A stretch of 12,489 nt of DNA. Origin: Candidatus Micrarchaeota archaeon. Lineage in GTDB: Archaea > Micrarchaeota > Micrarchaeia > Anstonellales > Bilamarchaeaceae. A program made the translations under genes and the position numbers. Shown here one piece after another: positions 1 through 12,489 of the stretch; the first letter of the stretch is position 1; each line of letters starts with the position of its first letter. The notes beneath the pieces are model-generated. The model did no database searches and was not told the DNA's origin. It worked only from the letters and a program-made list of their open reading frames with translations. Location: contig JBDRPL010000027.1 in NCBI GenBank assembly GCA_043827025.1, forward strand, positions 1-12,489. The letters run 5' to 3'.

Positions 1-19
1 CCTTCCACCCTTCACAATA

Positions 20-134
20 TGGGAACTGTATCCACCCTCTAAAGAAGGTAGGGGTTAGTTCCCAGCCATCGGGTCGCTTTCAGATGGGGGAGTCAGGAAT
101 CCCAGGGAAACTAGAGGGGCGCTCCCCTCTGGTT
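20..134. other. GC-rich structured non-coding region with three consecutive stem-loops (candidate ncRNA, REP/MITE-like element); may continue left of the window
   Basis: Inverted repeats read directly: TGGGAACT(20-27)/AGTTCCCA(57-64); CCATC(66-70)/GATGG(83-87); AACTAGAGGGG(109-119)-CGCT-CCCCTCTGGTT(124-134), 11 bp with one G:U. Direct repeat TCCACCCT at 4-11 and 31-38. Confidence 0.55.
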
Positions 135-141
135 GGCCTAA
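84..141. repeat. Bipartite dispersed repeat, copy 1
   Basis: ATGGGGGAGTCAGGAA (84-99) plus CTCCCCTCTGGTTGGCCTAA (122-141) match, in the same order and orientation, ATGTGGGAGTCAGGAA (11203-11218) plus CCCCCCTCTGGCTGGCTCAA (11290-11309). Confidence 0.7.
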
Positions 142-146
142 AAAAA
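140..146 (-). terminator. Possible archaeal oligo(T) terminator of the 218-1738 gene
   Basis: T7 tract on the minus strand about 70 nt downstream of the TAG at 218-220. Oligo(T) termination is established for archaea; this site is only inferred. Confidence 0.3.
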
Positions 147-217
147 GAGCCTCGGAAAAGATTCTAGAAACTGACAATTGATTGTCGAATTTTTCGACAT
201 AATGTGAAATAACAGGG

Positions 218-1738
218 CTACTCGGAACCGTAGATGCTTTTCTCATCTTTGTATTTTACATCGACAACCGTTGGAACCCCATTAATTTTTTCTATTTTCC
301 AACCATCTTGCAATATATAAGATGGAACTTTTGGAGCAAATGTTCTTTTGGCACCAGTGGATTTATGTATCAATGCACCTATGGCATTCTTGTTCTTTCC
401 GGTAGAACAGGATTCTAGAATGATGATTACACCCTCGAGGTATTTTCTCAATTCTTCTAATTCTTTAGCATCCGTAAGATCCAAACAAACGTTTTCTTTG
501 TATTTTTCGTTATAGGTAAATCCAAGTTCCATGCTGTCTGGGTCACCATGCGCACCAATAAGAAGATGGGTTATTTTGCCATAAGTTTCGTTTGTCTGTT
601 TTACTGCAGCATAAAAGTCACGTTCAGAATCTGCTTCATAAAGTACTACATCAAATTGTGATGAAAGATAATCAAATTTTTTATTGTCCTTGTAAAATGC
701 ACCATTAAGATCGCGATGATTATAAATTACAAGAAAAGTTGGTTTTCGATATTGTTTTTCTATATCCTCCCTTGAGACATATTTTGGAGAATACCCTACA
801 TCAACCTGATAAAGTTGTCGTTCTAGCTCTTCTTTGCTATACCTCAAAAAATACCTTATATTTCGCTGTTCATAAAGTTTCCAGGTATTCTCATTCCCAA
901 AAACTGCCCTGCCATACACCCAGTTAAGAGTGTTGATACGTCCAGCCTGCAGATAATGCGTGATCAGGCCCTTTTCTGTTTCTTCTTCTCCAGATTCCAC
1001 TGAAGGGACAACAAGATTTGGATTTTTTAACAAAGCAAGAATTTCTCTGAACTGGGAATCAGTAACTTGGCTAAAAAAAGCCTCAAGCCATAATGTTTTA
1101 TAGACTGGATAATATTCATCAGTGCCAATAAACCAAAATTTAAGGAAATTAACAAAGTCCTCAGGTTCTTTTTCAATAAAAGAGCTGAGACGGCCTGCAG
1201 ACTCGAATGCACAAGTGTCTGGATTTTTTGATTTGGGAACAAGATGGTTAAGTGCCCAATAAAATGAACTGGCTTTATCATCAGAATATGAAACGTGTTG
1301 ACCAATCTCACACACTCTTTTAAAAGTACGAAGATAGTTAAGGTCTGCCCATGAAGAAACCAATAATGAAAGAGTGGAAAGAGCAGAGGTCTGAAATTTT
1401 TCATCCATTTTAAGAATAACTGACAGTGTTTCTTTCAGTTCCCTAAGCATCTCAGCCTGAAAGTCAGGTCTTGAAACAAGCGAAACAAGAATAAAAAAAG
1501 TACTATAGTCTCCCTGAATGTGATGAGGGATGATTAATTTGTCATCATCAATCCTTCTCAGGACATAACCTGCAGTTTTTAGAGCCAGAAGTTTATCTTT
1601 CCTGCTAAGCCCGCCCCAAGCTTTTACCAGTTCCTCTCTTAGCTCTTTTGGTGCATCTAACAAAGAATCAGGAAATTTGATAGGGATCATACTAGCCCTA
1701 CTTTCCTTTTTTGTTTCAGGCAGCAATAATTCAGGCAT
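218..1738 (-). CDS. Hypothetical 506-aa protein with a probable helical N-terminal region and a C-terminal caspase-clan (CD) / DUF4347 / C80-like His-Cys domain
   Basis: Long ORF with ATG start and TAG stop. C-terminal motifs 'ITHLLIGAHGDP' (H397) and 'VIIILESCSTG' (C444) each follow a hydrophobic beta-strand, with 47-residue spacing. The CDS call is strong; the function is inferred. Confidence 0.8.
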   Translation of the reverse strand: MPELLLPETKKESRASMIPIKFPDSLLDAPKELREELVKAWGGLSRKDKLLALKTAGYVLRRIDDDKLIIPHHIQGDYSTFFILVSLVSRPDFQAEMLRELKETLSVILKMDEKFQTSALSTLSLLVSSWADLNYLRTFKRVCEIGQHVSYSDDKASSFYWALNHLVPKSKNPDTCAFESAGRLSSFIEKEPEDFVNFLKFWFIGTDEYYPVYKTLWLEAFFSQVTDSQFREILALLKNPNLVVPSVESGEEETEKGLITHYLQAGRINTLNWVYGRAVFGNENTWKLYEQRNIRYFLRYSKEELERQLYQVDVGYSPKYVSREDIEKQYRKPTFLVIYNHRDLNGAFYKDNKKFDYLSSQFDVVLYEADSERDFYAAVKQTNETYGKITHLLIGAHGDPDSMELGFTYNEKYKENVCLDLTDAKELEELRKYLEGVIIILESCSTGKNKNAIGALIHKSTGAKRTFAPKVPSYILQDGWKIEKINGVPTVVDVKYKDEKSIYGSE

Positions 1739-1762
1739 ATCTAGAATATTAGAGGAATACGG

Positions 1763-1770
1763 ATTTAAAT
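1763..1770 (-). promoter_or_regulatory. Putative archaeal TATA box for the 218-1738 gene (leaderless geometry)
   Basis: ATTTAAAT lies 25-32 nt upstream of the ATG at 1738, inside the palindrome GATTTAAATC (1762-1771). Confidence 0.45.
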
Positions 1771-1826
1771 CGATAAGTAAGGAAGGTTATTCATCTTTTT
1801 AAATGCACAAAAATATCCATCAATGC

Positions 1827-1835
1827 TTTAAAATA
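1827..1835 (+). promoter_or_regulatory. Putative archaeal TATA box for the trpB-aro operon (leaderless geometry)
   Basis: TTTAAAATA is centred about 26 nt upstream of the ATG at 1857, and no clear Shine-Dalgarno precedes that ATG. Confidence 0.5.
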
Positions 1836-1856
1836 TGGATTTGGAACATTTTGAGT

Positions 1857-3101
1857 ATGGATATCAATAAACAGGATGCTTACTTTGGGGATTACGGAGG
1901 CATATTCGTGCCTGAGACATTGATGGCTCCGCTCAAAGAACTGAAACACGAATTGGAAAAGGCAATGAATGATCCAATTTTTATTGATGAATTGAACAGA
2001 ATGCTGAAGGATTATGCTGGACGAGAAACTCCGCTCTATTTCTCAAAGAATCTGTCAAAAATGTTTGGCGGGAAGATTTATCTGAAGCGCGAGGATTTGC
2101 TTCATACGGGTGCTCATAAGATAAACAATGCCCTTGGTCAGGTATTGCTTGCCAAAAGAATGGGCAATAAAAGAATAATTGCTGAAACAGGTGCAGGCCA
2201 GCATGGAGTTGCAACTGCCACAGCTTGTGCTGTGCTTGGTCTTGAATGTGAAGTATATATGGGTGTTGAGGACGTGCAAAGACAGAGATTAAATGTGTTC
2301 AGGATGAAACTACTCGGGGCAACGGTGAATGTTGTTGACAAAGGTTCTCGAACCTTGAAGGATGCTATAAATGAAGCTCTCCGTGATTATGCCACGAATT
2401 ACAAGAATACGCATTACGTCATTGGTTCCGCTCTTGGCCCCCATCCTTATCCAAAGATGGTTCGCGACTTTCAATCGATTATTGGAAAGGAAGCAAAGAA
2501 GCAGATACTCGAATTCGAAGGAAGATTGCCGAATTATTTGATTGCATGCGTTGGCGGAGGAAGCAATGCAATTGGACTTTTTCATGAGTTTCGGAATGAT
2601 GCCGAAGTCAAGATGATTGGTGTTGAAGCTGGAGGCCTTGGAATCGAGACAAAGAAACATGCTGCGAGATTTGCCGAGAAACGTCTGGGAGTGCTGCACG
2701 GCACGAAAACATACGTGTTGCAGAACGAAGAAGGACAGATCAGAGAAACGCATTCCATATCAGCAGGTTTGGATTACCCGGCAGTTGGGCCAGAACACGC
2801 ATACTTGGAGGCGTTGGGAAAGGCAAGGTATGTTTCAGTAACAGACAATGAGGCATTAGAGGCGTTCGGATTGTTGAGCAGAACAGAAGGCATAATCCCA
2901 GCACTTGAAAGCGCGCATGCTATCGCTTATCTGAAGAAGATGGGCAACGAACTGAAGAACAAAGTGGTGATTGTGAATCTTTCAGGACGCGGGGATAAGG
3001 ATGTTGAAGTCGTATCAACGACTTCGACAGATTTGACTGAAAGTCAAACTGACGTGGAGAGTGTTTCCAGCAAGAAAGGTTTAATAAACCCTAAAACCTA
3101 G
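1857..3101 (+). CDS. trpB: Tryptophan synthase beta chain (TrpB1 type)
   Basis: Motifs [37 protein letters not shown] (PLP lysine), [41 protein letters not shown] and NLSGRGDKD. Start placed at ATG 1857 rather than 1803 because homology begins there and the TATA spacing fits. Confidence 0.97.
3002..3090 (+). other. Four tandem hairpins within the 3' extension of trpB
   Basis: TGTTGAAGTCGT-ATCA-ACGACTTCGACA (3002-3029, 12 bp with one G:U); TTTGACT-GAA-AGTCAAA (3032-3048); TGGAGA-GTG-TTTCCA (3055-3069); GGTTT-AAT-AAACC (3078-3090). Confidence 0.65.
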
Positions 3102-3109
3102 TTAATAAC

Positions 3110-5044
3110 ATGCTCTGTACTGTCATTGCGAAGCAGAAGGCAGATGATGCCATCCAAGCCATAAAAGAAGCAGCCGAACTCGGAGCAGACATTATTGAAC
3201 TGAGAATAGATTTTCTCTCTGATAAGGGCGAAGTCAAACGAATTATTTCTTCTTCTCCTTTACCTGTGATTGCAACTAATCGCGAAGGCAATCAATCTCT
3301 GTTAACTGATGCAATAAAGGCAGGGGCAAAATATGTTGATATGGATATGAATGAAATAGATAAAATGGTAATAGAGGTTGCCCGTAAAGTTGGGTGCAAA
3401 GTCATTCTCTCATACCACAATATCCACGAAATGCCTTCCATAGGCAAACTAACAGAAATTTACAACAAACTCAAGGCAAGCAAGGCAGACCTGATAAAAA
3501 TAGTCCCTACTTCAAACTCAAAAATAGACAATGCCACCATACTTTCAATGTATGATGGAATGCAAAACAACCTAATCGCATTCGCAATGGGCGAAATTGG
3601 AAAACCAACAAGGCTGAAGGCTGTTGAAAAAGGGGCAAGATGGATGTACTGCGCAACTGACAGAAAGGTTGCTCCTGGGCAATATTCACTGGAAGAGGCA
3701 AGAAAGGTAATCAAAAGAAGATACTTCATAATCGGCGACCCAATCGGACACTCAGTTTCGCCACAGATGCACAACTCGAATTTCTCATCACTTGGATTGA
3801 ACTCAACATATGAAGCAATAAAAGTAGCAAAGGAAGACCTCAAAAAGTTTGTTGCTGACCTGAGGAACTCGAATTATTCCGGTGGAAATGTTACAATCCC
3901 GCACAAAATCGAGATTCGAAAGTATGTTGATGAAATAGATCCACTGGCAAAAGAAATAGGCTCCATCAATACAGTAAAGAATTTCGCTGGAAAGCTTGTT
4001 GGTTACAATACTGACGGATATGGAGCGCTTCTCTCACTGGAAGAAGCCATTGGAAAAGTAGATGGCAAAGAAATTGCCATACTCGGCGCAGGAGGAGCTG
4101 CAAGAGCCATTGCATTCACCTTTGAAAAACATGGCGCAAAAGTCACAATAGTAAACAGGGATGCAAAAAAAGCCAAGGAAATCACAAACAACATAGCAGA
4201 ATACTCGAAGCTTGCAGAAGTAATGAGAAGAATAGACATCCTAATTAATTGCACCCCTCTTGGAATGTCCCCAAAAATAGATGAAAGCCCTGTGCCAAAA
4301 GAATATTTCAAGGGTACAAACAAAAACATGGTTGTCTTTGACATAGTGTATAATCCGCTGATGACAAAGCTTCTCAAAGAAGCCAAGGAAGCAGGATTTA
4401 AAGTAATAACTGGAGAGAAGATGCTTGCCTACCAAGCTTCAGGATCTTTTGAGATATGGACCGGCATGAAAGCGGATGCCAAGACAATGCTTGAAGGCGC
4501 AAGAACAAAACTGAATGAAAAGGAGGGTAATTCCACCATTGCATTGATAGGTTTCATGGGAACTGGCAAAACCACCATAGGTTCAATACTGGCGCAGAGA
4601 CTTAACAAGAAATTGATTGACATTGACAAAGAAATAGAAAACGAAGTGGGAAAAGAGATAGACAGGATATTCGAAGAAGATGGAGAATCGCACTTTAGAC
4701 TACTGGAAAAGAAAGCAGTTATGAAGCATTTCAATGGCAACTCTAATGCAGTGGTTTCATGCGGAGGAGGAACAGTCCTAGACATGGAAAGCTCCCTGAA
4801 AATAAAGGAGTGTTCACGAGTGGTGTTGCTAAGGGCAAAACCTGAAACAATAGTGGAAAGATTAAAGGATAACTTATCAAGGCCCTTGCTTCACATATCA
4901 AGTGAGGAAAAAATAGAAAGGATAAAGAAAATATTGAAGCACAGAAAGGCAATATATGAAATGTCAGCCAATTATGTAGTAGATACAGATGGACTGACTC
5001 CGGGCCAAGTGGCAGATAAAATAATGGAGAAATTAGGGAATTAA
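3110..5044 (+). CDS. aroD-aroE-aroK: Trifunctional type I 3-dehydroquinate dehydratase / shikimate dehydrogenase / shikimate kinase
   Basis: AroD (~3110-3710): ELRID, ILSYHN, ADLIKIV (Schiff-base Lys), FAMGEIG, APGQ. AroE (~3716-4510): GDPIGHSVSP, NVTIPHK, GYNTDG, ILGAGGAARA, DIVYNP. AroK (~4535-5044): GFMGTGKT P-loop, DID, GE..FR..E, GGG, RPLL. Confidence 0.95.
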   Translation: MLCTVIAKQKADDAIQAIKEAAELGADIIELRIDFLSDKGEVKRIISSSPLPVIATNREGNQSLLTDAIKAGAKYVDMDMNEIDKMVIEVARKVGCKVILSYHNIHEMPSIGKLTEIYNKLKASKADLIKIVPTSNSKIDNATILSMYDGMQNNLIAFAMGEIGKPTRLKAVEKGARWMYCATDRKVAPGQYSLEEARKVIKRRYFIIGDPIGHSVSPQMHNSNFSSLGLNSTYEAIKVAKEDLKKFVADLRNSNYSGGNVTIPHKIEIRKYVDEIDPLAKEIGSINTVKNFAGKLVGYNTDGYGALLSLEEAIGKVDGKEIAILGAGGAARAIAFTFEKHGAKVTIVNRDAKKAKEITNNIAEYSKLAEVMRRIDILINCTPLGMSPKIDESPVPKEYFKGTNKNMVVFDIVYNPLMTKLLKEAKEAGFKVITGEKMLAYQASGSFEIWTGMKADAKTMLEGARTKLNEKEGNSTIALIGFMGTGKTTIGSILAQRLNKKLIDIDKEIENEVGKEIDRIFEEDGESHFRLLEKKAVMKHFNGNSNAVVSCGGGTVLDMESSLKIKECSRVVLLRAKPETIVERLKDNLSRPLLHISSEEKIERIKKILKHRKAIYEMSANYVVDTDGLTPGQVADKIMEKLGN

Positions 5045-5058
5045 TAGATTGGTGAGTA

Positions 5059-7431
5059 ATGATGATGAATGAGGTTTCAATTATACTTAAAAAAACAGAT
5101 GGCAATATCACAGGGACAGTTACAGCACCCCCTTCAAAAAGCTACACTCACAGGGCAATAATATGCGGGGCGCTTGCAAAAGGAAAAACAATCATAAAAA
5201 ATGCACTTATATGTGAAGACACGCTTGCGACTATCGAAGCTTGCAGGAAACTAGGTGCAAAAATAGAGACTGTTGAAGATTGTTTAGAGGTGGACGGAAC
5301 AGAAAACACTTTACTTAAGGATTATGGAAACCGAGATGTCCATTGGAAGGATCTGACAATAGATTGCAAGGAATCAGGTTCCACACTAAGATTCATGATA
5401 CCTCTATGTACCTTGACAGAAAGACCTACCAGAATAATCGGAAAAAGCGGACTACTAAAAAGGCCTACGAAACAGATCGTCGAATCTTTGACAAAAATAG
5501 GAGTTTCGATTCATGATAATGACGGAGTTCCTCCTGTGAAAACGGGAGGGGGGCTGAAAGGCGGGCGAATTGAAGTAGCAGGCAATGTAAGCTCCCAATT
5601 CATTTCAGGTTTGCTGTTTGCTCTTCCATTGGCAAAAGAAAAGAGCGAAGTAGTGGTAACAACAGACGTTGAATCTAAGAATTACATTGAAATGACGCTT
5701 GACATATTGAATACGTTTGACATAAGCGTCGTGAACTCTGCTGACCTCAAGAAATTCCTCATATCGCCTAACCAAAGCTATAAACCAAAAAAATATGCTG
5801 TTGAAGGAGATTATTCGTCAGGCGCTTTCTTGCTTGCACTGGGCATATTGGCAAGCGATAAAGGAATCTATGTAAAAGGGCTGGAAGAAAAGACGTGGCA
5901 GGGGGATGCGGAATTCGCCCGCATACTCAAAAGAATGGGTGCAGAGATAACCTTCCAAAAGGGTTACAGAGTTGCAAAAAGCCATCTTAACGGATGTGAA
6001 ATAGATGCAAAGAACATTCTGGACTTGGTGCCAATATTATGCGTTGTGGCAACCCAAGCCAACGGAAAAACAATCATAAGGAATATTGAAAGACTGAAGA
6101 TAAAAGAATGCAACAGGGCAGCTGCCATAATCTCTGAACTAAGAAAGATGGGTGCAGACATCGTTGAGAAAGAAAACGCAATTGAAGTTGTTGGACCCAC
6201 CAAGCTAAAAGGCGCTGTGATTGATCCGCATAATGACCATAGGATAGCCATGGCCTGCTCAGTAGCTTCGCTGATTGCTGATGGGGAAACAATAATCCTT
6301 GATCCGACTTGCATAAAAAAATCATATCCTGAGTTCTATAATCACCTTAGAAGATTAGGGGTTGAAGTAACCACGCTTGAGAATTCATTTGGAAAAAAAT
6401 TCAAGATACAGACTTACGGGGACTCGCATGGGAAGAAGATAGGCGTCCTGATAGACGGCTGCCCTAAAGGAATTGGAGTAAGTATTCAAGACATACAAAA
6501 TGAATTGGACAAACGAAGAAGCTACGGCGAGCTTTCGACTCCAAGGAAGGAAGAGGACAAGGTGACTGTGCTTTCAGGAATAGAAAACGGAGTTGCAACT
6601 GGGAGCGTCATACGACTCGAAATCTTGAACATGGATACTCATTCCAAAAGCTATGAATCGATTAGGAATAGTCCAAGGCCAGGGCATGCTGACTATACGG
6701 CGTTCATGAAATATGGAAGCGTGTTTGACTATCGTGGCGGAGGATTCCTTTCAGGAAGAATGACTGCATGCATGGCCATGGCAGGTGCAATTGCAAAGAA
6801 GATCCTTTCAGGAAAGGACATTGCGGTAAATGCGTACGCAAGGCAGATAGGCAAAGCAAAGTTCACAAAGGAAGTCAGTGTTGAAGATTTGAAGAAATAC
6901 AAAGGCATTGCAAATTGTCCATTCGAAGAAACTTCAAAGAAGATGATTGCGGAGATAGAAAATGCCATGAAAGATGAGGATTCTGTTGGTGGGATAGTTG
7001 AATGCAGAATAGATGGTGTTCCTATGGGAATCGGGGAACCGATCTTCAATTCTATTGAATCGATTGTATCTCATGCGATGTTTTCCATTCCTGCAGTTAA
7101 AGGAATAGAATTCGGTTCGGGATTCTCAGGCTCTGGAAAGAAAGGGAGCGAAAACAACGATCCATTTGTAGTGAAGGATGGCGAGATTCAGACAAAGACG
7201 AACAATGCCGGCGGGATACTTGGCGGCATTTCAAATGGAATGTCAATTATTTTCAGGGTTGCAATAAAACCCACCTCTTCCATTGGAAAGGAGCAGGATA
7301 CTGTTGATTTGAAATCCATGAAAAATGCCAAGATAAAGATAATTGGAAGGCATGACCCGTGCATAGTTGTTCGCGTACCAGTTGTGGTTGAGGCAATGGC
7401 AGCAATTGCATTGGCAGAGTTGATGGAATGA
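5059..7431 (+). CDS. aroA-aroC: Bifunctional EPSP synthase / chorismate synthase
   Basis: AroA (to ~6370): PPSKSYTHRA, ESGSTLRF, SSQFISGLL, EGDYSS, KECNR, DHRIAM, KSYPEF. AroC (from ~6380): NSFG..TYGDSHG, RPGHADY, RGGG..SGR, SIPAVKGIEFG, TNNAGGILGGISNG, KPTSSI, GRHDPC. The SD GGTGA at 5051-5055 suggests the real start is the second or third ATG (5062 or 5065). Confidence 0.95.
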   Translation: MMMNEVSIILKKTDGNITGTVTAPPSKSYTHRAIICGALAKGKTIIKNALICEDTLATIEACRKLGAKIETVEDCLEVDGTENTLLKDYGNRDVHWKDLTIDCKESGSTLRFMIPLCTLTERPTRIIGKSGLLKRPTKQIVESLTKIGVSIHDNDGVPPVKTGGGLKGGRIEVAGNVSSQFISGLLFALPLAKEKSEVVVTTDVESKNYIEMTLDILNTFDISVVNSADLKKFLISPNQSYKPKKYAVEGDYSSGAFLLALGILASDKGIYVKGLEEKTWQGDAEFARILKRMGAEITFQKGYRVAKSHLNGCEIDAKNILDLVPILCVVATQANGKTIIRNIERLKIKECNRAAAIISELRKMGADIVEKENAIEVVGPTKLKGAVIDPHNDHRIAMACSVASLIADGETIILDPTCIKKSYPEFYNHLRRLGVEVTTLENSFGKKFKIQTYGDSHGKKIGVLIDGCPKGIGVSIQDIQNELDKRRSYGELSTPRKEEDKVTVLSGIENGVATGSVIRLEILNMDTHSKSYESIRNSPRPGHADYTAFMKYGSVFDYRGGGFLSGRMTACMAMAGAIAKKILSGKDIAVNAYARQIGKAKFTKEVSVEDLKKYKGIANCPFEETSKKMIAEIENAMKDEDSVGGIVECRIDGVPMGIGEPIFNSIESIVSHAMFSIPAVKGIEFGSGFSGSGKKGSENNDPFVVKDGEIQTKTNNAGGILGGISNGMSIIFRVAIKPTSSIGKEQDTVDLKSMKNAKIKIIGRHDPCIVVRVPVVVEAMAAIALAELME

Positions 7432-8555
7432 GCCTTGAAATGAATAGAAAAAAGATTGACGAAGTCGACAGAAGGATAGTTGAACTGATATCTGAAAGGA
7501 TCAAGATTGCAAGGCAGATTGGAGAGGAAAAGGAAAAAAGCGGGAAAGGCGTTTATGATCCGAAAAGAGAAGAAGAGTTATTGAAGAAGATAGAGCAGAT
7601 TGCGCAGAAGAAAGGACTTGATGTGCAAGAGTTGAAAAGAATTTTTATTGACATATTCTACGTTTCCAAGAAAGAGCAGGCAAAGGCTGCAAAGGCCAAG
7701 AGAATAGAGGCTTACGGCAAACAGAAAATAAGGGTTGGTTTCCAAGGAACGCGGGGGGCATACAGTGAAAGCGCAATGAAACTTGCATTTCCTCATTCTA
7801 TAGCTGTAGGATTCAGGCTATTCAGCCAGCCGTTTGATGCGCTTGTGAATGAAAAAATAGATGTGGCAGTGATACCAATTGAAAACTCAACATTTGGAAG
7901 CGTACTTCCAGTCTATGATTTGCTGATGAATTTGGATGTAAAGGCAGTTGGAGAAATAAAACTGCCGATAGAACATTGCCTGCTCGGAATACAAGGTTCA
8001 GAACTGAAAGATATAACTGAGGTATATTCCCATCCCCAGGCTCTTGCCCAATGCAGAGACAGCCTTGCCAGAATGAAAATCAAGCAAGTCGAATGTTTTG
8101 ATACTGCAGGTGCTGCTGAGATGGTTGCTAAGAAGAAAGACCGAAAGATGGGTGCAATTGCTTCTGAAAATGCTGCTGGGATTTATGGCCTAAAAATTTT
8201 GAAGAAAGGAATACAGGACAAATCAGGTAATATGACCCGGTTCCTTGTTTTTGTAAGAAGCAATGACAAAGTTGATTGGCAAAAAGACAAATCAAAACAA
8301 TATAAAACCTCCATAATCTTCAGCGTTCCACATGTTACAGGCTCTTTGTTCAAGGCTTTGAAGATTCTGGCGGACAACAAAATAAATTTGACAAAGATAG
8401 AGTCACGCCCAACAGGAAAGGTGACGTGGGAGTATTTATTTTACATAGATTTCATAGGCAATTTGGAAGATACAGAAATAAAGAAAATCATGGACAAATT
8501 TAAAGAACAGACGCAGTATTTGAGATTAATAGGGAGCTATCCGACAAGTGATTAA
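7428..8555 (+). CDS. pheA: P-protein: chorismate mutase (AroQ type) / prephenate dehydratase with ACT domain
   Basis: N-terminal RKKIDEVD..IVELISER..A.QIG..K...VYDPKRE; PDT motifs FQGTRGAYSE, PIENSTFG, SHPQALAQC, DTAGAA, NMTRF; ACT motif NLTKIESRP..WEYLFYIDF. ATGA overlap with the aroC stop. Confidence 0.96.
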   Translation: MSLEMNRKKIDEVDRRIVELISERIKIARQIGEEKEKSGKGVYDPKREEELLKKIEQIAQKKGLDVQELKRIFIDIFYVSKKEQAKAAKAKRIEAYGKQKIRVGFQGTRGAYSESAMKLAFPHSIAVGFRLFSQPFDALVNEKIDVAVIPIENSTFGSVLPVYDLLMNLDVKAVGEIKLPIEHCLLGIQGSELKDITEVYSHPQALAQCRDSLARMKIKQVECFDTAGAAEMVAKKKDRKMGAIASENAAGIYGLKILKKGIQDKSGNMTRFLVFVRSNDKVDWQKDKSKQYKTSIIFSVPHVTGSLFKALKILADNKINLTKIESRPTGKVTWEYLFYIDFIGNLEDTEIKKIMDKFKEQTQYLRLIGSYPTSD

Positions 8556-8556
8556 C

Positions 8557-9639
8557 ATGCTTTACAAAATAACTGAAAAGATATTCCAGCTTGAGCAAAA
8601 AGGAGAGAAAATATACAAAATGAATATTGGCGAGCCGGACTGGCCAAGCATTCCCGAAGCTGTGGATGCTGCTAAGAAAGCGTTGGATGAAGGCAAAACC
8701 AAATATGCATCTGCCCAAGGTGAAAAAGAGTTGCTTCAGCTTGCTGCAAAGATGCATAAATGCGACACCAAGAACGTAATTGTAAGCACAGGTTCGAAAT
8801 GGGCTATATTCTCTGCGATTTATTTGAATGTGAAACCTGATGAGGAAGTAATTGTGTTTTCTCCGCACTGGACTGCGTTCGAACTGATGATCAAACAGGC
8901 AGGTGCCAAACCAGTCATCATTGACTTGAAATTTGAGGATAAATGGGCAATTGATCTTGAATTTCTGAAATCCAAAATCGGGCCGAAAACCAAGATGATA
9001 ATACTGAACAACCCTGTGAATCCGACAAGCCATGCCTGGAGCGAAAAGGTTGAACAGGGGATAATTGAAATTGCCAAAGAAAAAAGAGTCCTGGTTCTAT
9101 TAGATACTGCATATCGTGGACTCGCTTTCGACAAGATGAAAGATCCTGTTTATGATGAGAATGTGATAATCGCCTATTCATTTGCAAAGCCATTCGGAAT
9201 GACTGGCTGGAGACTTGGACATACATGTGCAAACGAAGAGATAGTGAAAAAGATGATGAAGTTTAACCAGATAACACTTACCAATACACCCGTCTTCATC
9301 CAGGCTGCAGGGATAGAGATGCTGAAGCAAAGAGATTCACTTGGGAAGAAGGCGGTTGAGTATTGCAAGGAAAGGGCCAAGGTTGCCATGGAGATATTTG
9401 ACAAAGGCGGAATGGAATATACAAAGCCAAAGGCTGGATTTTATTTGTTTCCTAAACTAAACAGGAGCGGGATTGAAGTTGCAAATGAACTGCTTGACAA
9501 ATATAAAATTGCAGTTGTTCCAGGCGCAGCATTCGGAAACTATGATAGATTTGTGAGGATCTCATTGTGCTATTCTGGGAAAACGCTTGAAGGGATAATG
9601 GAGAAGATAGTTGAGGTATCCAAATGCAAATTGCAATAA
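8557..9639 (+). CDS. PLP-dependent class I/II aminotransferase (AspC-like; probably the aromatic aminotransferase of this operon)
   Basis: Motifs NIGEPD, TKYASAQG, NNPVNPT, DTAY, SFAKPFGMTGWRLG (PLP Lys), GFYLFP, VVPGAAFG, VRIS. The ATG at 8557 follows GTGA and the pheA stop; the GTG at 8548 is an alternative start. Substrate inferred from context. Confidence 0.92.
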   Translation: MLYKITEKIFQLEQKGEKIYKMNIGEPDWPSIPEAVDAAKKALDEGKTKYASAQGEKELLQLAAKMHKCDTKNVIVSTGSKWAIFSAIYLNVKPDEEVIVFSPHWTAFELMIKQAGAKPVIIDLKFEDKWAIDLEFLKSKIGPKTKMIILNNPVNPTSHAWSEKVEQGIIEIAKEKRVLVLLDTAYRGLAFDKMKDPVYDENVIIAYSFAKPFGMTGWRLGHTCANEEIVKKMMKFNQITLTNTPVFIQAAGIEMLKQRDSLGKKAVEYCKERAKVAMEIFDKGGMEYTKPKAGFYLFPKLNRSGIEVANELLDKYKIAVVPGAAFGNYDRFVRISLCYSGKTLEGIMEKIVEVSKCKLQ

Positions 9640-10262
9640 TCGGAAACGGCAGGATGGGCAGATGGTTTGCCGAATACTTCAGGAAGAAAGGGTTTGTTGT
9701 TTCTGTGTATGAAAAGGAAAATAAACTGGATGACATTTACCTTGCCAATTACGTGATGGTTGCTGTTACTCTTGACAAAACAGATGATGTACTAAGGCAA
9801 ATTACAGGCAAGGTTCATGCGGATCAAATAGTATTTGATATTGCGTCTGTAAAGTCGCACATCATCAACGAAATCAAGAAATTAAAATGCCGAATTGCAA
9901 GTATTCATCCAATGTTTGGCGAGTCTGCTAAGGATTTAAAAGGCCAAGAGGTCGTCATAATTTCCAATATCGGGAAGAAAGCAGAACATGAGGAAATGAA
10001 AGGGCTGTTCAAAGAGGCTAGGTTAAGCCAGATGACAGTTGAAGAACATGACAAGATGATGGCATATTCACAGGTCCTTCCCTACTTATTGGCATTGACA
10101 TTCGGCAGGATGACAAAAGGCAAGAAGCTGATAGAGCCTCCAGTCTTCCAGATGCAGAAGAAAGTCTATGAAAAGGTAATGGAAGAAGAAGAGATGGTGA
10201 AACAGATAATAATGTTGAATCCTTATGCCAAGGAAGTTGCTAAGGAGATTGGAAAGGGATAG
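9624..10262 (+). CDS. tyrA: Prephenate/arogenate dehydrogenase family protein (compact TyrA)
   Basis: Rossmann motif IAIIGNGRMG, DIASVK, catalytic SIHPMFG and EEHDKMMA. SD GAGGT at 9613-9617. Overlaps the aminotransferase by 16 nt. Confidence 0.9.
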   Translation: MQIAIIGNGRMGRWFAEYFRKKGFVVSVYEKENKLDDIYLANYVMVAVTLDKTDDVLRQITGKVHADQIVFDIASVKSHIINEIKKLKCRIASIHPMFGESAKDLKGQEVVIISNIGKKAEHEEMKGLFKEARLSQMTVEEHDKMMAYSQVLPYLLALTFGRMTKGKKLIEPPVFQMQKKVYEKVMEEEEMVKQIIMLNPYAKEVAKEIGKG

Positions 10263-10354
10263 AATATTACTTTGCCTATGGTTCAAATAGGGATGAAGAG
10301 AGAATGAATTTTGGTATAACTGGCGTACTGATACGGTGTGAAATTTATGGGGGT

Positions 10355-11167
10355 TTACTGTGAAGATGTTTGATCATATTTAATAATCGCCTTGACTGAA
10401 GACACACAATCCGCTCTAAACTTTAGAAAAAAATCATGCCGTAACGAAATTTCGTTGCATAAGCTTAGGTTTTTCGAACTTATTGCCAAAGCGATTTGAC
10501 GAGACCCAAAATAATAATCATCTTCTTTATATTCACTTGTACTATTAAATCCATTTAAGCTTCTGTCTACATTGAGTACACAATGTTCTTTGGGTTTTGC
10601 GTGATACTTTGAACTTATCTTATCACATAGTGATTTATCTTCAAAAAGAGCTGCAAAATAGTAATAACACTGATAACTTTCCATGTCGTCGCAGGCTATT
10701 AAATCTTCCCTTGTGGTATCAGCTATATCAAGATCGGACAGCACTCTTTCAAAACAATTGTACCTAGTAACGTTTGTATATGGGACAAACTCTTCATATT
10801 TAATTTCATAACAATACTTCGGATCCATTAATAAAATAGCTTGATTAAATGCCTGATAATCTAATACTTTTCCAACATCCTGAATACACGTTTTTTCATC
10901 ATTCATGGAAGCGCCAGGGCTACGAGAAACAATCGGACTAGCAAATACTGGAGAATGCTTGCATAAATCCGGATTTTTCTCTTCTATTGCTTTATCTACG
11001 ACACAAAAATACTGTTTAAAATAGGAATCCATTCCATCGTAAGAAGTACTGTGATCTATCGGGTAAGCACACTCAACCAAGGTTGTTTCTCTCCTAACAT
11101 CGGAATTACTCGTACAACCAAAAAGGCAAAACACCAAGATCAATAATATCAATTTCTTCATTTCCAT
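10355..11167 (-). CDS. Predicted secreted/lipoprotein with paired-cysteine repeats
   Basis: Signal/lipobox-like (ME)MKKLILLILVFCLFG|C, 12 further Cys, and repeats AIEEKNPDLC, AILLMDPKYC, AALFEDKSLC, AISSKNLSLC. Start could be 11161, 11167 or 11185; an AT-rich TATA-like TATTATTAA at 11200-11192 favours about 11167. Confidence 0.85.
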   Translation of the reverse strand: MEMKKLILLILVFCLFGCTSNSDVRRETTLVECAYPIDHSTSYDGMDSYFKQYFCVVDKAIEEKNPDLCKHSPVFASPIVSRSPGASMNDEKTCIQDVGKVLDYQAFNQAILLMDPKYCYEIKYEEFVPYTNVTRYNCFERVLSDLDIADTTREDLIACDDMESYQCYYYFAALFEDKSLCDKISSKYHAKPKEHCVLNVDRSLNGFNSTSEYKEDDYYFGSRQIALAISSKNLSLCNEISLRHDFFLKFRADCVSSVKAIIKYDQTSSQ

Positions 11168-11202
11168 CCCATTTCCGTTTCGCATTCATTCTTAATAATA
11201 TT

Positions 11203-11309: not shown

Positions 11310-12079
11310 TTTATTGAATCAAGACAACCCTCTGGATTTTTTATGGAAATACTGCGGTTGAGGTCAACATAACTCCTTATAACAAATCCTGACTTTTTAG
11401 CAATAGTGTATTCTTCCTTTAGTAATGAAAGAGAAGAAGATCCGCAATATTCTTTTACCAAGACATAATGCACTCTAATAAAATGAGTAGAATCTTCATT
11501 TATGAAAGAACTGAGTATCCTATACGCGGATGATGTATGGTAGTCTGCAAAGTTTAGTTCATTGAATATAAATGCGACATTATCACGATTGATACTGCTT
11601 GTATTCATACGCCCATATGTGATTTCATCTGTTCTTGTCATGTTTGCATAATCGCATCTTAGAACCCAGTTTATTGTTGTTTCATTGCAACAAAAAGGAC
11701 AGTATTTACTTTCAAACTCAAAATATCTGGATGTTTTATTTACTTTGAGGATCTCTTGGAGTGGGTATCCACTATATTTTCGTAATATATTTTCTGTATC
11801 ATTACGATTATCTGCACACTCGAAAAGAGATAAGATGCTAGTGCCATTTCCATATTCACTGTATTGTAGATTTGCAGCCCATGCAAGTTCCTGGTCAGTG
11901 AACGTTGTTTTATTTCCCTCAAAAATAGGTTGAGGATAACCAAATGATTTAGGTTCATTAACTGTAGAAATGTTTGTCTGATTATTTTCTAATGCAATAG
12001 TTCAATTCTTCCCAGCATTCTGCTGCTGGACACATCCTAGCATAAGGAAAACGACAACCAAGGCTAATATTTTCTTCAT
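11306..12079 (-). pseudogene. Predicted lipoprotein/surface glycoprotein gene (257 codons) interrupted by one in-frame TGA at codon 26
   Basis: Manual translation: ATG 12079 MKKILALVVVFLMLGCVQQQNAGKN-TGA(12004-12002)-TIALENNQTNIST... stays open in the same frame through the Met at 11641 to the TGA at 11306. Many N-x-S/T sequons are present. Confidence 0.8.
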
Positions 12080-12103
12080 AGTAAAACATATCCTCATCAA
12101 AGT

Positions 12104-12489
12104 TTAATTTGATTTGGCTGACCATTCTTTTGAATTATATGAAACAATTTCCATTTTGACAGAAACAGAACCTGTCATTTTGTCTACCTTATATACTGAT
12201 TTTGTTAAATCAATAGTTTGATATCTGTCAAGTAACCCGCTATGTATATAAAATTGAGTTCCTTCAAAATAGTCTCCTTTATCTACTACAAAAGAACTTA
12301 GAATTGACAAATATGCTTCTCGGTATATCAAAGAATAATCCATAAAGTCTTCTACAACTTCGTTAGTCAATGGTCTTTTGTTGATATTGCCTAGAACTCC
12401 ATTAATTTGATCTATCGTAGAATTTGAAGTATTGAGATAGCTGCATTTATGGACTCTTAAAAAATCACCTGAAACATCATTTAAGACAT
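12104..12489 (-). CDS. 5'-truncated hypothetical protein, paralogue of the 11306-12079 product
   Basis: The frame of the 88-aa track ORF is open to the window edge (VLNDVSGDFLRVHKCSYLNTSNSTIDQINGVLGNINKRPLTNEVV...) and shares colinear motifs with the downstream gene. Confidence 0.8.
   Translation of the reverse strand, partial: VLNDVSGDFLRVHKCSYLNTSNSTIDQINGVLGNINKRPLTNEVVEDFMDYSLIYREAYLSILSSFVVDKGDYFEGTQFYIHSGLLDRYQTIDLTKSVYKVDKMTGSVSVKMEIVSYNSKEWSAKSN

What the first reader, a model, noticed from the sequence alone, without database searches (positions are those of the whole stretch)
1857..10262. Fusion-compacted aromatic amino acid operon (10 activities in 6 genes) in what looks like a DPANN-type archaeon
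Seen: trpB, aroD-E-K, aroA-C, pheA, aminotransferase and tyrA, with gaps of at most about 20 nt or overlaps. Shikimate steps 3-7 run in exact pathway order on only two polypeptides. Established: fungal AROM has the order AroB-A-K-D-E and lacks AroC, plants fuse AroD-E, and DPANN archaea mostly lack amino acid biosynthesis. Inference: this is an independently evolved two-chain 'AROM-like' system, possibly a metabolon, in a lineage normally regarded as auxotrophic.
Basis: partly seen in the sequence, partly recalled or inferred. Interest (0 to 1): 0.8.

Follow-up and report, generated by a model that had tools for sequence, protein, structure and literature searches.

The report
Two-protein shikimate pathway in small archaeon
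A small-genome archaeon encodes five consecutive steps of aromatic amino acid synthesis on just two fused proteins; the operon is common among its relatives, but this pairing is rare, and one fusion is predicted to be a rigid two-enzyme unit.

Summary
trpB, aroD-E-K, aroA-C, pheA (mutase-dehydratase), an aminotransferase and tyrA form one tight run, with ten enzyme domains in six genes. The genome is a Micrarchaeota MAG. It carries the rest of the pathway on other contigs, using the archaeal ADH route.

The interpretation needs scaling down. Aromatic amino acid synthesis is already reported for several Micrarchaeota orders. 65 of 401 genomes in the phylum have chorismate synthase, and 34 of 51 inspected relatives have the same D-E-K-A-C order, mostly with AroA and AroC separate. 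The order is therefore inherited, and fusions arise repeatedly between neighbours. A single origin of A-C is rejected. Both architectures appear as rows in a 2024 supplement.

What remains: both fusions together occur in only 2 of 401 genomes. The main A-C family has a fixed-length junction, a predicted rigid interface (pTM 0.91), and appears to replace split aroA/aroC in place. A metabolon is untested. The scan noted a related, ordinary archaeal operon on other DNA.

The parts
1857..3101 (+). trpB, tryptophan synthase beta (TrpB1 type); its partner trpA is on contig C5
   Evidence: TIGR00263 628 bits; trpA location. An upstream ATG at 1803 is in frame, but the family match starts at residue 8 of the 1857 start.
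3110..5044 (+). aroD-aroE-aroK trifunctional protein (644 aa)
   Evidence: Pfam/NCBIfam; AF2 pLDDT 91.8, pTM 0.67
3110..3718 (+). type I 3-dehydroquinate dehydratase domain (H103, K130, R168 conserved)
   Evidence: PF01487; invariant or near-invariant columns; catalytic roles recalled
3719..4519 (+). shikimate dehydrogenase domain (K266, D302 invariant)
   Evidence: TIGR00507 above cut-off
4529..5044 (+). bacterial-type (P-loop, AroK) shikimate kinase domain (G481, G486, K487, D506, R530 invariant)
   Evidence: PF01202
5059..7431 (+). aroA-aroC bifunctional protein (790 aa), with almost no linker between the domains
   Evidence: TIGR01356 and TIGR00033 both above cut-off; AF2 pLDDT 91.5, pTM 0.91; junction length
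5059..6381 (+). EPSP synthase domain (K27, R32, D322, K349, E350, R353, R395, K421 conserved)
   Evidence: PF00275; TM 0.92 to E. coli EPSPS
6382..7431 (+). chorismate synthase domain (H457, R486, R496, H543, D766 invariant)
   Evidence: PF01264; TM 0.83-0.85 to solved chorismate synthases
7428..8555 (+). pheA: chorismate mutase (AroQ) - prephenate dehydratase - ACT
   Evidence: PF01817, PF00800, PF01842
8548..9639 (+). PLP aminotransferase class I/II; by context likely the aromatic transaminase (start GTG 8548 or ATG 8557)
   Evidence: PF00155; same operon slot in relatives
9624..10262 (+). tyrA, short prephenate dehydrogenase (212 aa)
   Evidence: PF02153; a 216-aa homologue in G392 aligns full length at 41%; NCBIfam PRK06444 model is 197 positions, matched below cut-off

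Best explanation
This is an aromatic amino acid operon of a Micrarchaeota archaeon in which neighbouring shikimate genes have fused into AroD-E-K and AroA-C, which likely convert 3-dehydroquinate to chorismate in five ordinary steps. 3-Dehydroquinate would come from the aspartate kinase, asd, ADH synthase and DHQ synthase II cluster on contig C5. PheA, TyrA and the aminotransferase would then give Phe and Tyr, and TrpB with trp genes elsewhere would give Trp. The pathway order was inherited from an operon that already had it. Fusions likely arose by loss of a stop or a small indel between abutting, often 4-nt-overlapping genes, many times independently. AroD-E-K likely behaves as flexibly tethered domains. 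AroA-C is predicted to be a rigid two-enzyme protomer, likely assembled on the usual chorismate synthase tetramer (recalled). The block likely reached this genome by horizontal transfer. Shown: domains, order, distribution, repeated origin. Inferred: activities, flexibility or rigidity, oligomer, transfer.
For: Domains and conserved active-site columns. Front end found on C5; no canonical AroB was found and the only DAHP-family hit is NeuB (genome 91.6% complete). trpA on C5, trpEG and trpDCF on C24. D-E-K-A-C order in 34 of 51 inspected relatives; E-K fused in most; K-A, K-D, A-K, D-E and trpC-trpB fusions also seen. Split aroA/aroC pairs often overlap by 4 nt. The A-C label needs 7 changes on the AroC tree and 6 on the AroA tree; the AU test rejects one clade, p=5.9e-28, on 48 of the 125 rows. 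D-E-K needs 10 changes on an 87-row AroE tree, at least 3 forced. AF2 pTM 0.91 for A-C versus 0.67 for D-E-K. The A-C junction is 36 aa in 49 of 49 main-clade rows, while D-E and E-K linkers vary. G000's shikimate and Phe/Tyr genes are only 31-51% identical to 12 resident-type family members, against 44-74% among residents; its nearest A-C relatives include proteins labelled Aenigmarchaeota. HGT-driven gain of amino acid pathways is published for these orders.
Against: No enzyme was assayed. 27% of all 36-residue windows in the same alignment are equally length-invariant, so the fixed junction alone is weak. Trees are FastTree or quick IQ-TREE with modest deep support (main fused clade 82-94). 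Taxon labels of MAG proteins can be wrong: P0045 is labelled Methanobacteriota but is the protein of G269, a same-order genome. The direction of transfer is not shown.
Confidence: 0.8

Rival explanations
1. One reading: AroD-E-K and AroA-C bind each other and form a two-chain AROM-like metabolon that passes intermediates along.
For: Both fusions are adjacent in G000 and G104. Three further pairs probably share a contig, judged only by equal longest-contig lengths: P0002/P0124, P0003/P0122, P0023/P0129. K-A and A-K fusions in other Micrarchaeota, and A-K-D-E proteins elsewhere, show that K and A can be joined.
Against: The two fusions assort independently: 9 of 11 A-C genomes lack D-E-K and 4 of 6 D-E-K genomes lack A-C. 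In G164, G123 and G215 the fused A-C gene sits beside resident-type DAHPS, aroB, aroD and pheA, which argues against a co-adapted partner. G104's D-E-K is only 38% identical and does not group with G000's.
Confidence: 0.1
2. Both fusions are neutral read-through accidents with flexible tethers and no functional coupling; only co-expression and stoichiometry matter.
For: Many different neighbour fusions occur in the same operon; repeated origins; D-E-K pTM 0.67 with variable linkers; the D-E arrangement in the model differs from plant DHQ-SDH, rmsd 18 A.
Against: The main A-C family spans about 50 proteins at 42-60% identity without fission and with a constant junction. AF2 places the two domains confidently. 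The fused gene appears to have displaced split genes in at least three genomes.
Confidence: 0.35
3. The contig is mis-binned or chimeric and does not belong to a DPANN archaeon.
For: The contig is short and starts in a repeat. The operon's proteins are unlike the family's resident type. One close D-E-K homologue is labelled Patescibacteria.
Against: Tetranucleotide fit. Terminal and internal repeats are shared with C26, C10, C32 and C5. Same contig depth as its neighbour in X1 (15.3 vs 15.1). It supplies exactly the steps missing from C5 and C24, and tblastn finds no second copy. Same-family genomes carry the same fusion.
Confidence: 0.04

Closest known systems
Fungal pentafunctional AROM (AroB-A-K-D-E; PDB 6HQV, 7U5S)
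   Same: Several consecutive shikimate steps on multidomain chains; shares type I AroD, AroE, P-loop AroK and AroA domains.
   Different: Two chains, not one; no AroB (DHQ synthase II is used); AroC included; order D-E-K + A-C; domains only distantly similar to AROM's.
Plant, Planctomycetes and Methanomassiliicoccales AroD-E bifunctional (DHQ-SDH; PDB 2GPT; PRK09310)
   Same: Type I AroD fused N-terminally to AroE; best PDB sequence hit.
   Different: Extra C-terminal AroK; below the PRK09310 cut-off (217 vs 598); arose from a D | E-K operon state.
Archaeal fusion clusters 1521 (AroA-AroC), 319.4 (TIM barrel-AroE-P-loop) and 319.2 (AroE-AroK) of Padalko et al. 2024, PMC11237513
   Same: Identical domain architectures listed in supplementary file 3: A-C in 2 Thermoplasmatales, D-E-K in 1 unclassified archaeon, E-K in 1 Micrarchaeota and 1 other.
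   Different: Rows in a table only; the main-text passages seen do not mention A-C or D-E-K. No co-occurrence, phylogeny or structure is given there, and A-C was not reported from DPANN.
Biosynthetically rich Micrarchaeota (Anstonellales, Norongarragalinales; PMC8561730, PMC12892359)
   Same: Small-genome DPANN with de novo aromatic amino acid synthesis gained by HGT; G000 also has hisD and argG.
   Different: The word 'fusion' does not occur in the main text of PMC12892359. G000 uses the ADH front end, whereas most inspected family members use DAHP synthase + AroB.

Membership tests
AROM pentafunctional protein | AroB, AroA, AroK, AroD, AroE on one polypeptide | tested here: not met
   Two ORFs separated by a stop and 14 nt; no D-E-K-A-C single chain among 2 hits in the longer-length search (weak evidence)
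AROM pentafunctional protein | Contains AroB-type DHQ synthase | tested here: not met
   PF01761 not found in G000 (91.6% complete); DHQ synthase II found instead
AROM pentafunctional protein | Domain order B-A-K-D-E, without AroC | tested here: not met
   D-E-K and A-C
Shikimate pathway enzymes AroD/E/K/A/C | Family profile match over the full domain | tested here: met
   Pfam cut-offs passed for all five; aroE, aroA and aroC TIGRFAMs above cut-off, aroD TIGR01093 below (114 vs 139)
Shikimate pathway enzymes AroD/E/K/A/C | Catalytic residues present | tested here: met
   Invariant or near-invariant columns; their catalytic roles are recalled from characterised enzymes
Shikimate pathway enzymes AroD/E/K/A/C | Enzyme activity | not testable with these tools
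   Needs complementation or assay
Micrarchaeota (DPANN) | Marker-based placement with named members | tested here: met
   G164 (same family) and G392 (same class) encode proteins identical to P0010 and P0031, which NCBI labels Candidatus Micrarchaeota; one conflicting label, P0045
Anstonellales | Order-level marker phylogeny with named genomes | not tested
   Only suggestive: biosynthetic breadth, and a Bilamarchaeaceae label on a related A-C cluster
Metabolon | Physical association of the two chains and intermediate transfer | not tested

The most novel reading that the evidence does not exclude
A mobile family of linker-less, rigid EPSP synthase-chorismate synthase enzymes holds the two active sites at a fixed geometry on a chorismate synthase tetramer and hands EPSP on directly. 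It is advantageous enough to replace split aroA/aroC genes in place across DPANN and other archaea. Together with AroD-E-K it forms a prokaryotic two-chain counterpart of AROM that runs all the way to chorismate.
Probability: 0.2. Interest if true: 0.7.

Novelty: new variant of a known kind. Interest (0 to 1): 0.42.

Why it matters
AroA-C joins the two steps that AROM leaves apart. My five fusion-related literature searches and the PDB searches found no biochemical or structural study of it. If the interface is real, it is a natural test of whether fusing EPSP synthase to chorismate synthase couples them, and a compact two-gene cassette for shikimate engineering. The Micrarchaeota operon also shows every stage from separate genes to E-K, D-E-K and A-C, with interchangeable front ends. 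That makes it a tractable model for how AROM-like proteins arise from operon order. The presence of the pathway in this DPANN lineage is not itself new.

Tried and rejected
Complex prediction of the AroK domain with AroA-C: the tool's queue was full and nothing was folded, so there is no verdict. Longer-length homologue search for a single D-E-K-A-C chain: 2 hits, neither of that kind (weak negative). Genome-collection scan with the single A-C protein gave 3 clostridial loci, all with separate aroA and aroC. Metagenome scan with the close D-E-K alignment: 0 of the 80 kept loci (of 545 relatives) had D-E-K or A-C fused. Rfam: no match in the window. Promoter and terminator counts were at shuffle level, and the sigma-70 scan does not suit archaea. 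The repeat scan showed only short, likely chance pairs. No RNA holder listed. ilvD and lysA were not found in the 91.6% complete genome. Three papers recalled as relevant (Richards 2006, tried by two ids; Youssef 2015) were not held; Zhi et al. 2014 on prokaryotic shikimate domain architectures is recalled and was not looked up; these may already mention the fusions. PMC9074039 gave nothing on channelling. Supplementary file 3 of PMC11237513 was cut when stored, and supplements of the other papers were not read. Active-site positions were taken from alignment columns, not from a dedicated motif scan.

Full report
Observation. The window is a whole contig, G000:C27, of a 1.33-Mb, 91.6% complete genome. 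Six + strand ORFs run from 1857 to 10262. Pfam and NCBIfam identify TrpB; AroD-AroE-AroK (644 aa); AroA-AroC (790 aa); chorismate mutase-prephenate dehydratase-ACT; a class I/II aminotransferase; and a short prephenate dehydrogenase. Gaps are 8 and 14 nt and overlaps 4, 8 and 16 nt. That is ten enzyme domains in six genes, with shikimate steps 3-7 in order on two chains. Alignments of 58 A-C and 34 D-E-K proteins keep the active-site positions (catalytic roles recalled). The shikimate kinase is the bacterial P-loop type, not the GHMP type usual in archaea (recalled).

Not an artefact. One contig of run X1, which may be the source, spans 112-10,689 without a difference. Contigs of another groundwater study bridge the D-E and E-K junctions without differences; among the pieces listed, none from an independent run bridges A-C, and 45 were not shown. 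The contig's tetranucleotide profile fits the bin (0.984 against a median of 0.973 for 86 equal chunks), and tblastn finds no second copy of the shikimate genes. It shares repeats with four other contigs.

Taxonomy. Same-family genome G164 and same-class genome G392 encode proteins identical to P0010 and P0031, labelled Candidatus Micrarchaeota. One same-order genome's protein is labelled Methanobacteriota (P0045), which I take as a submitter's label. DPANN is therefore right. The order, possibly Anstonellales, was not tested.

The rest of the pathway. No AroB was found, and the single DAHP-family hit is NeuB. Contig C5 carries aspartate kinase, asd, ADH synthase, a methyltransferase, DHQ synthase II, an unknown ORF and trpA. 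C24 carries trpE-G and trpD-C-F, and C2 a pab-like trio. hisD and argG are present; ilvD and lysA were not found. The genome thus appears able to make Phe, Tyr and Trp through the archaeal ADH route.

How unusual is the lineage? 65 of 401 sampled genomes of the phylum have chorismate synthase, including 29 of 76 in the window's family and 0 of 94 and 2 of 83 in the two largest other families. The pathway is a minority trait, but it is in print. PMC8561730 (passages and section 22 read) lists aromatic amino acid synthesis for Anstonellales and related orders. PMC12892359 (passages) says Norongarragalinales and Anstonellales make nearly all amino acids, mostly gained by HGT after each lineage diversified. 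PMC13473441 (passages) argues instead for a free-living DPANN ancestor with amino acid genes.

How unusual is the order? I annotated loci from 51 of the other 64 aroC genomes; 13 were not fetched. 34 of the 51 have aroD, E, K, A, C contiguous in pathway order, usually as D | E-K | A | C | pheA | tyrA | aminotransferase behind DAHP synthase and aroB. The order therefore predates the fusions. Neighbour fusions vary: E-K, D-E, D-E-K, K-A, K-D, A-K, A-C and trpC-trpB occur. Among 384 collected proteins there are also K-E, K-D-E, A-K-D-E, K-D-E-C, A-C-CM and one B-A-K-D-E. Split aroA/aroC pairs often overlap by 4 nt, so one small change fuses them.

How unusual are the fusions? A-C is fused in 11 of the 65 aroC genomes and D-E-K in 6 of 401. 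Both occur together in 2: G000 and G104. Three metagenomic pairs probably add to this, judged only from equal contig lengths. None of 80 kept metagenome loci had either fusion. Both architectures are rows in supplementary file 3 of PMC11237513: A-C in two Thermoplasmatales and D-E-K in one unclassified archaeon. The main-text passages I saw discuss only D-E and E-K. Searches (listings only, except the papers named) turned up no study of either protein, but most subscription papers are not held.

Origin. On the AroC tree (125 rows) the fused label needs 7 changes, at least 5 forced by strong branches; on the AroA tree (164 rows) it needs 6. An AU test on 48 selected rows rejects one origin (p=5.9e-28). 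Separate origins include a Ruminococcaceae-labelled group and the G183 group, which retains the old AroC start methionine. The window's protein belongs to a main clade of about 50 proteins with moderate support, which holds members of five Micrarchaeota families and proteins labelled Aenigmarchaeota, Thermoplasmata and Deltaproteobacteria. It lies apart from the unfused AroA and AroC of its own family. In G164, G123 and G215, DAHPS, aroB, aroD, pheA and tyrA are resident-like (for example PDT 65-72%), but A and C are foreign (39-42% and 45-50%, against 52-63% and 65-68% among residents; E and K are also somewhat lower). This suggests replacement in place. In G000 all genes but trpB are foreign-type. 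D-E-K also arose several times; G000's forms a 9-member clade (97) that excludes G104's.

Structure. AlphaFold2 gives A-C pLDDT 91.5 and pTM 0.91, with the junction above 90: the last AroA strand runs straight into the first residues of AroC. The stretch S422-H457 is 36 aa in 49 of 58 rows, all of the main clade, and the other nine belong to other origins. However, 27% of equal windows are as invariant. D-E-K has pLDDT 91.8 but pTM 0.67 and variable linkers, and its D-E arrangement does not match plant DHQ-SDH. No solved structure covers both halves of A-C. Binding between the two chains could not be modelled.

Mechanism. Most likely (0.8), D-E-K turns dehydroquinate into shikimate-3-phosphate with tethered, independent domains, and A-C turns it into chorismate as a rigid protomer on a chorismate synthase tetramer (tetramer recalled). 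The fusions come from operon adjacency and spread horizontally. A DEK:AC metabolon is unlikely (0.1), because the two fusions assort independently. Whether the A-C interface couples the two reactions is open.

Verdict. Real; a new variant of known multifunctional shikimate enzymes. It works like AROM in compaction but is not an AROM. The lineage and gene order are ordinary; the rare double fusion and the uncharacterised, apparently rigid and mobile AroA-C family are the parts worth following. Interest 0.42.

Noticed in passing
window 1-146: Dispersed repeat shared with the start of contig C26 (99% over 146 nt) and part of C32; it breaks the assembly; no Rfam match.
   Followed up: partly
window 11965-12107 and 10302-10371: Short intergenic or gene-end repeats also on C10 and C32, and on C5.
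   Followed up: no
window 218-1738 (-): 506-aa ORF without Pfam or NCBIfam match; its C-terminal 170 aa resemble DUF4347/DUF6642 models, under the Atlas's bar. A His-Gly and a Cys motif suggest a caspase-like peptidase (my inference).
   Followed up: partly
window 10355-11185 (-): 276-aa cysteine-rich ORF with a lipoprotein-like signal peptide and no family match.
   Followed up: no
G000:C5 (L040), G000:C24 (L042) and window: The trp genes are split three ways: trpB precedes aroDEK, trpA follows DHQ synthase II, and trpEG and trpDCF are on C24. Relatives keep trpB-trpA together.
   Followed up: partly
L044-L053: The fused A-C back end is found behind either the canonical DAHP synthase + AroB or the archaeal ADH synthase + DHQ synthase II front end.
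   Followed up: partly
P0249, P0256, P0289, P0268, P0078, P0242: Other large shikimate fusions (A-K-D-E, A-D-E, D-E-A-K, K-D-E-C, B-A-K-D-E). A-K-D-E matches AROM order without AroB; source organisms unknown.
   Followed up: no
P0061-P0072: An independent AroA-AroC fusion family, one member labelled Ruminococcaceae.
   Followed up: partly
G000:C2 (L041:6569-9186): pabB/pabA/pabC-like trio, suggesting p-aminobenzoate synthesis from chorismate.
   Followed up: no
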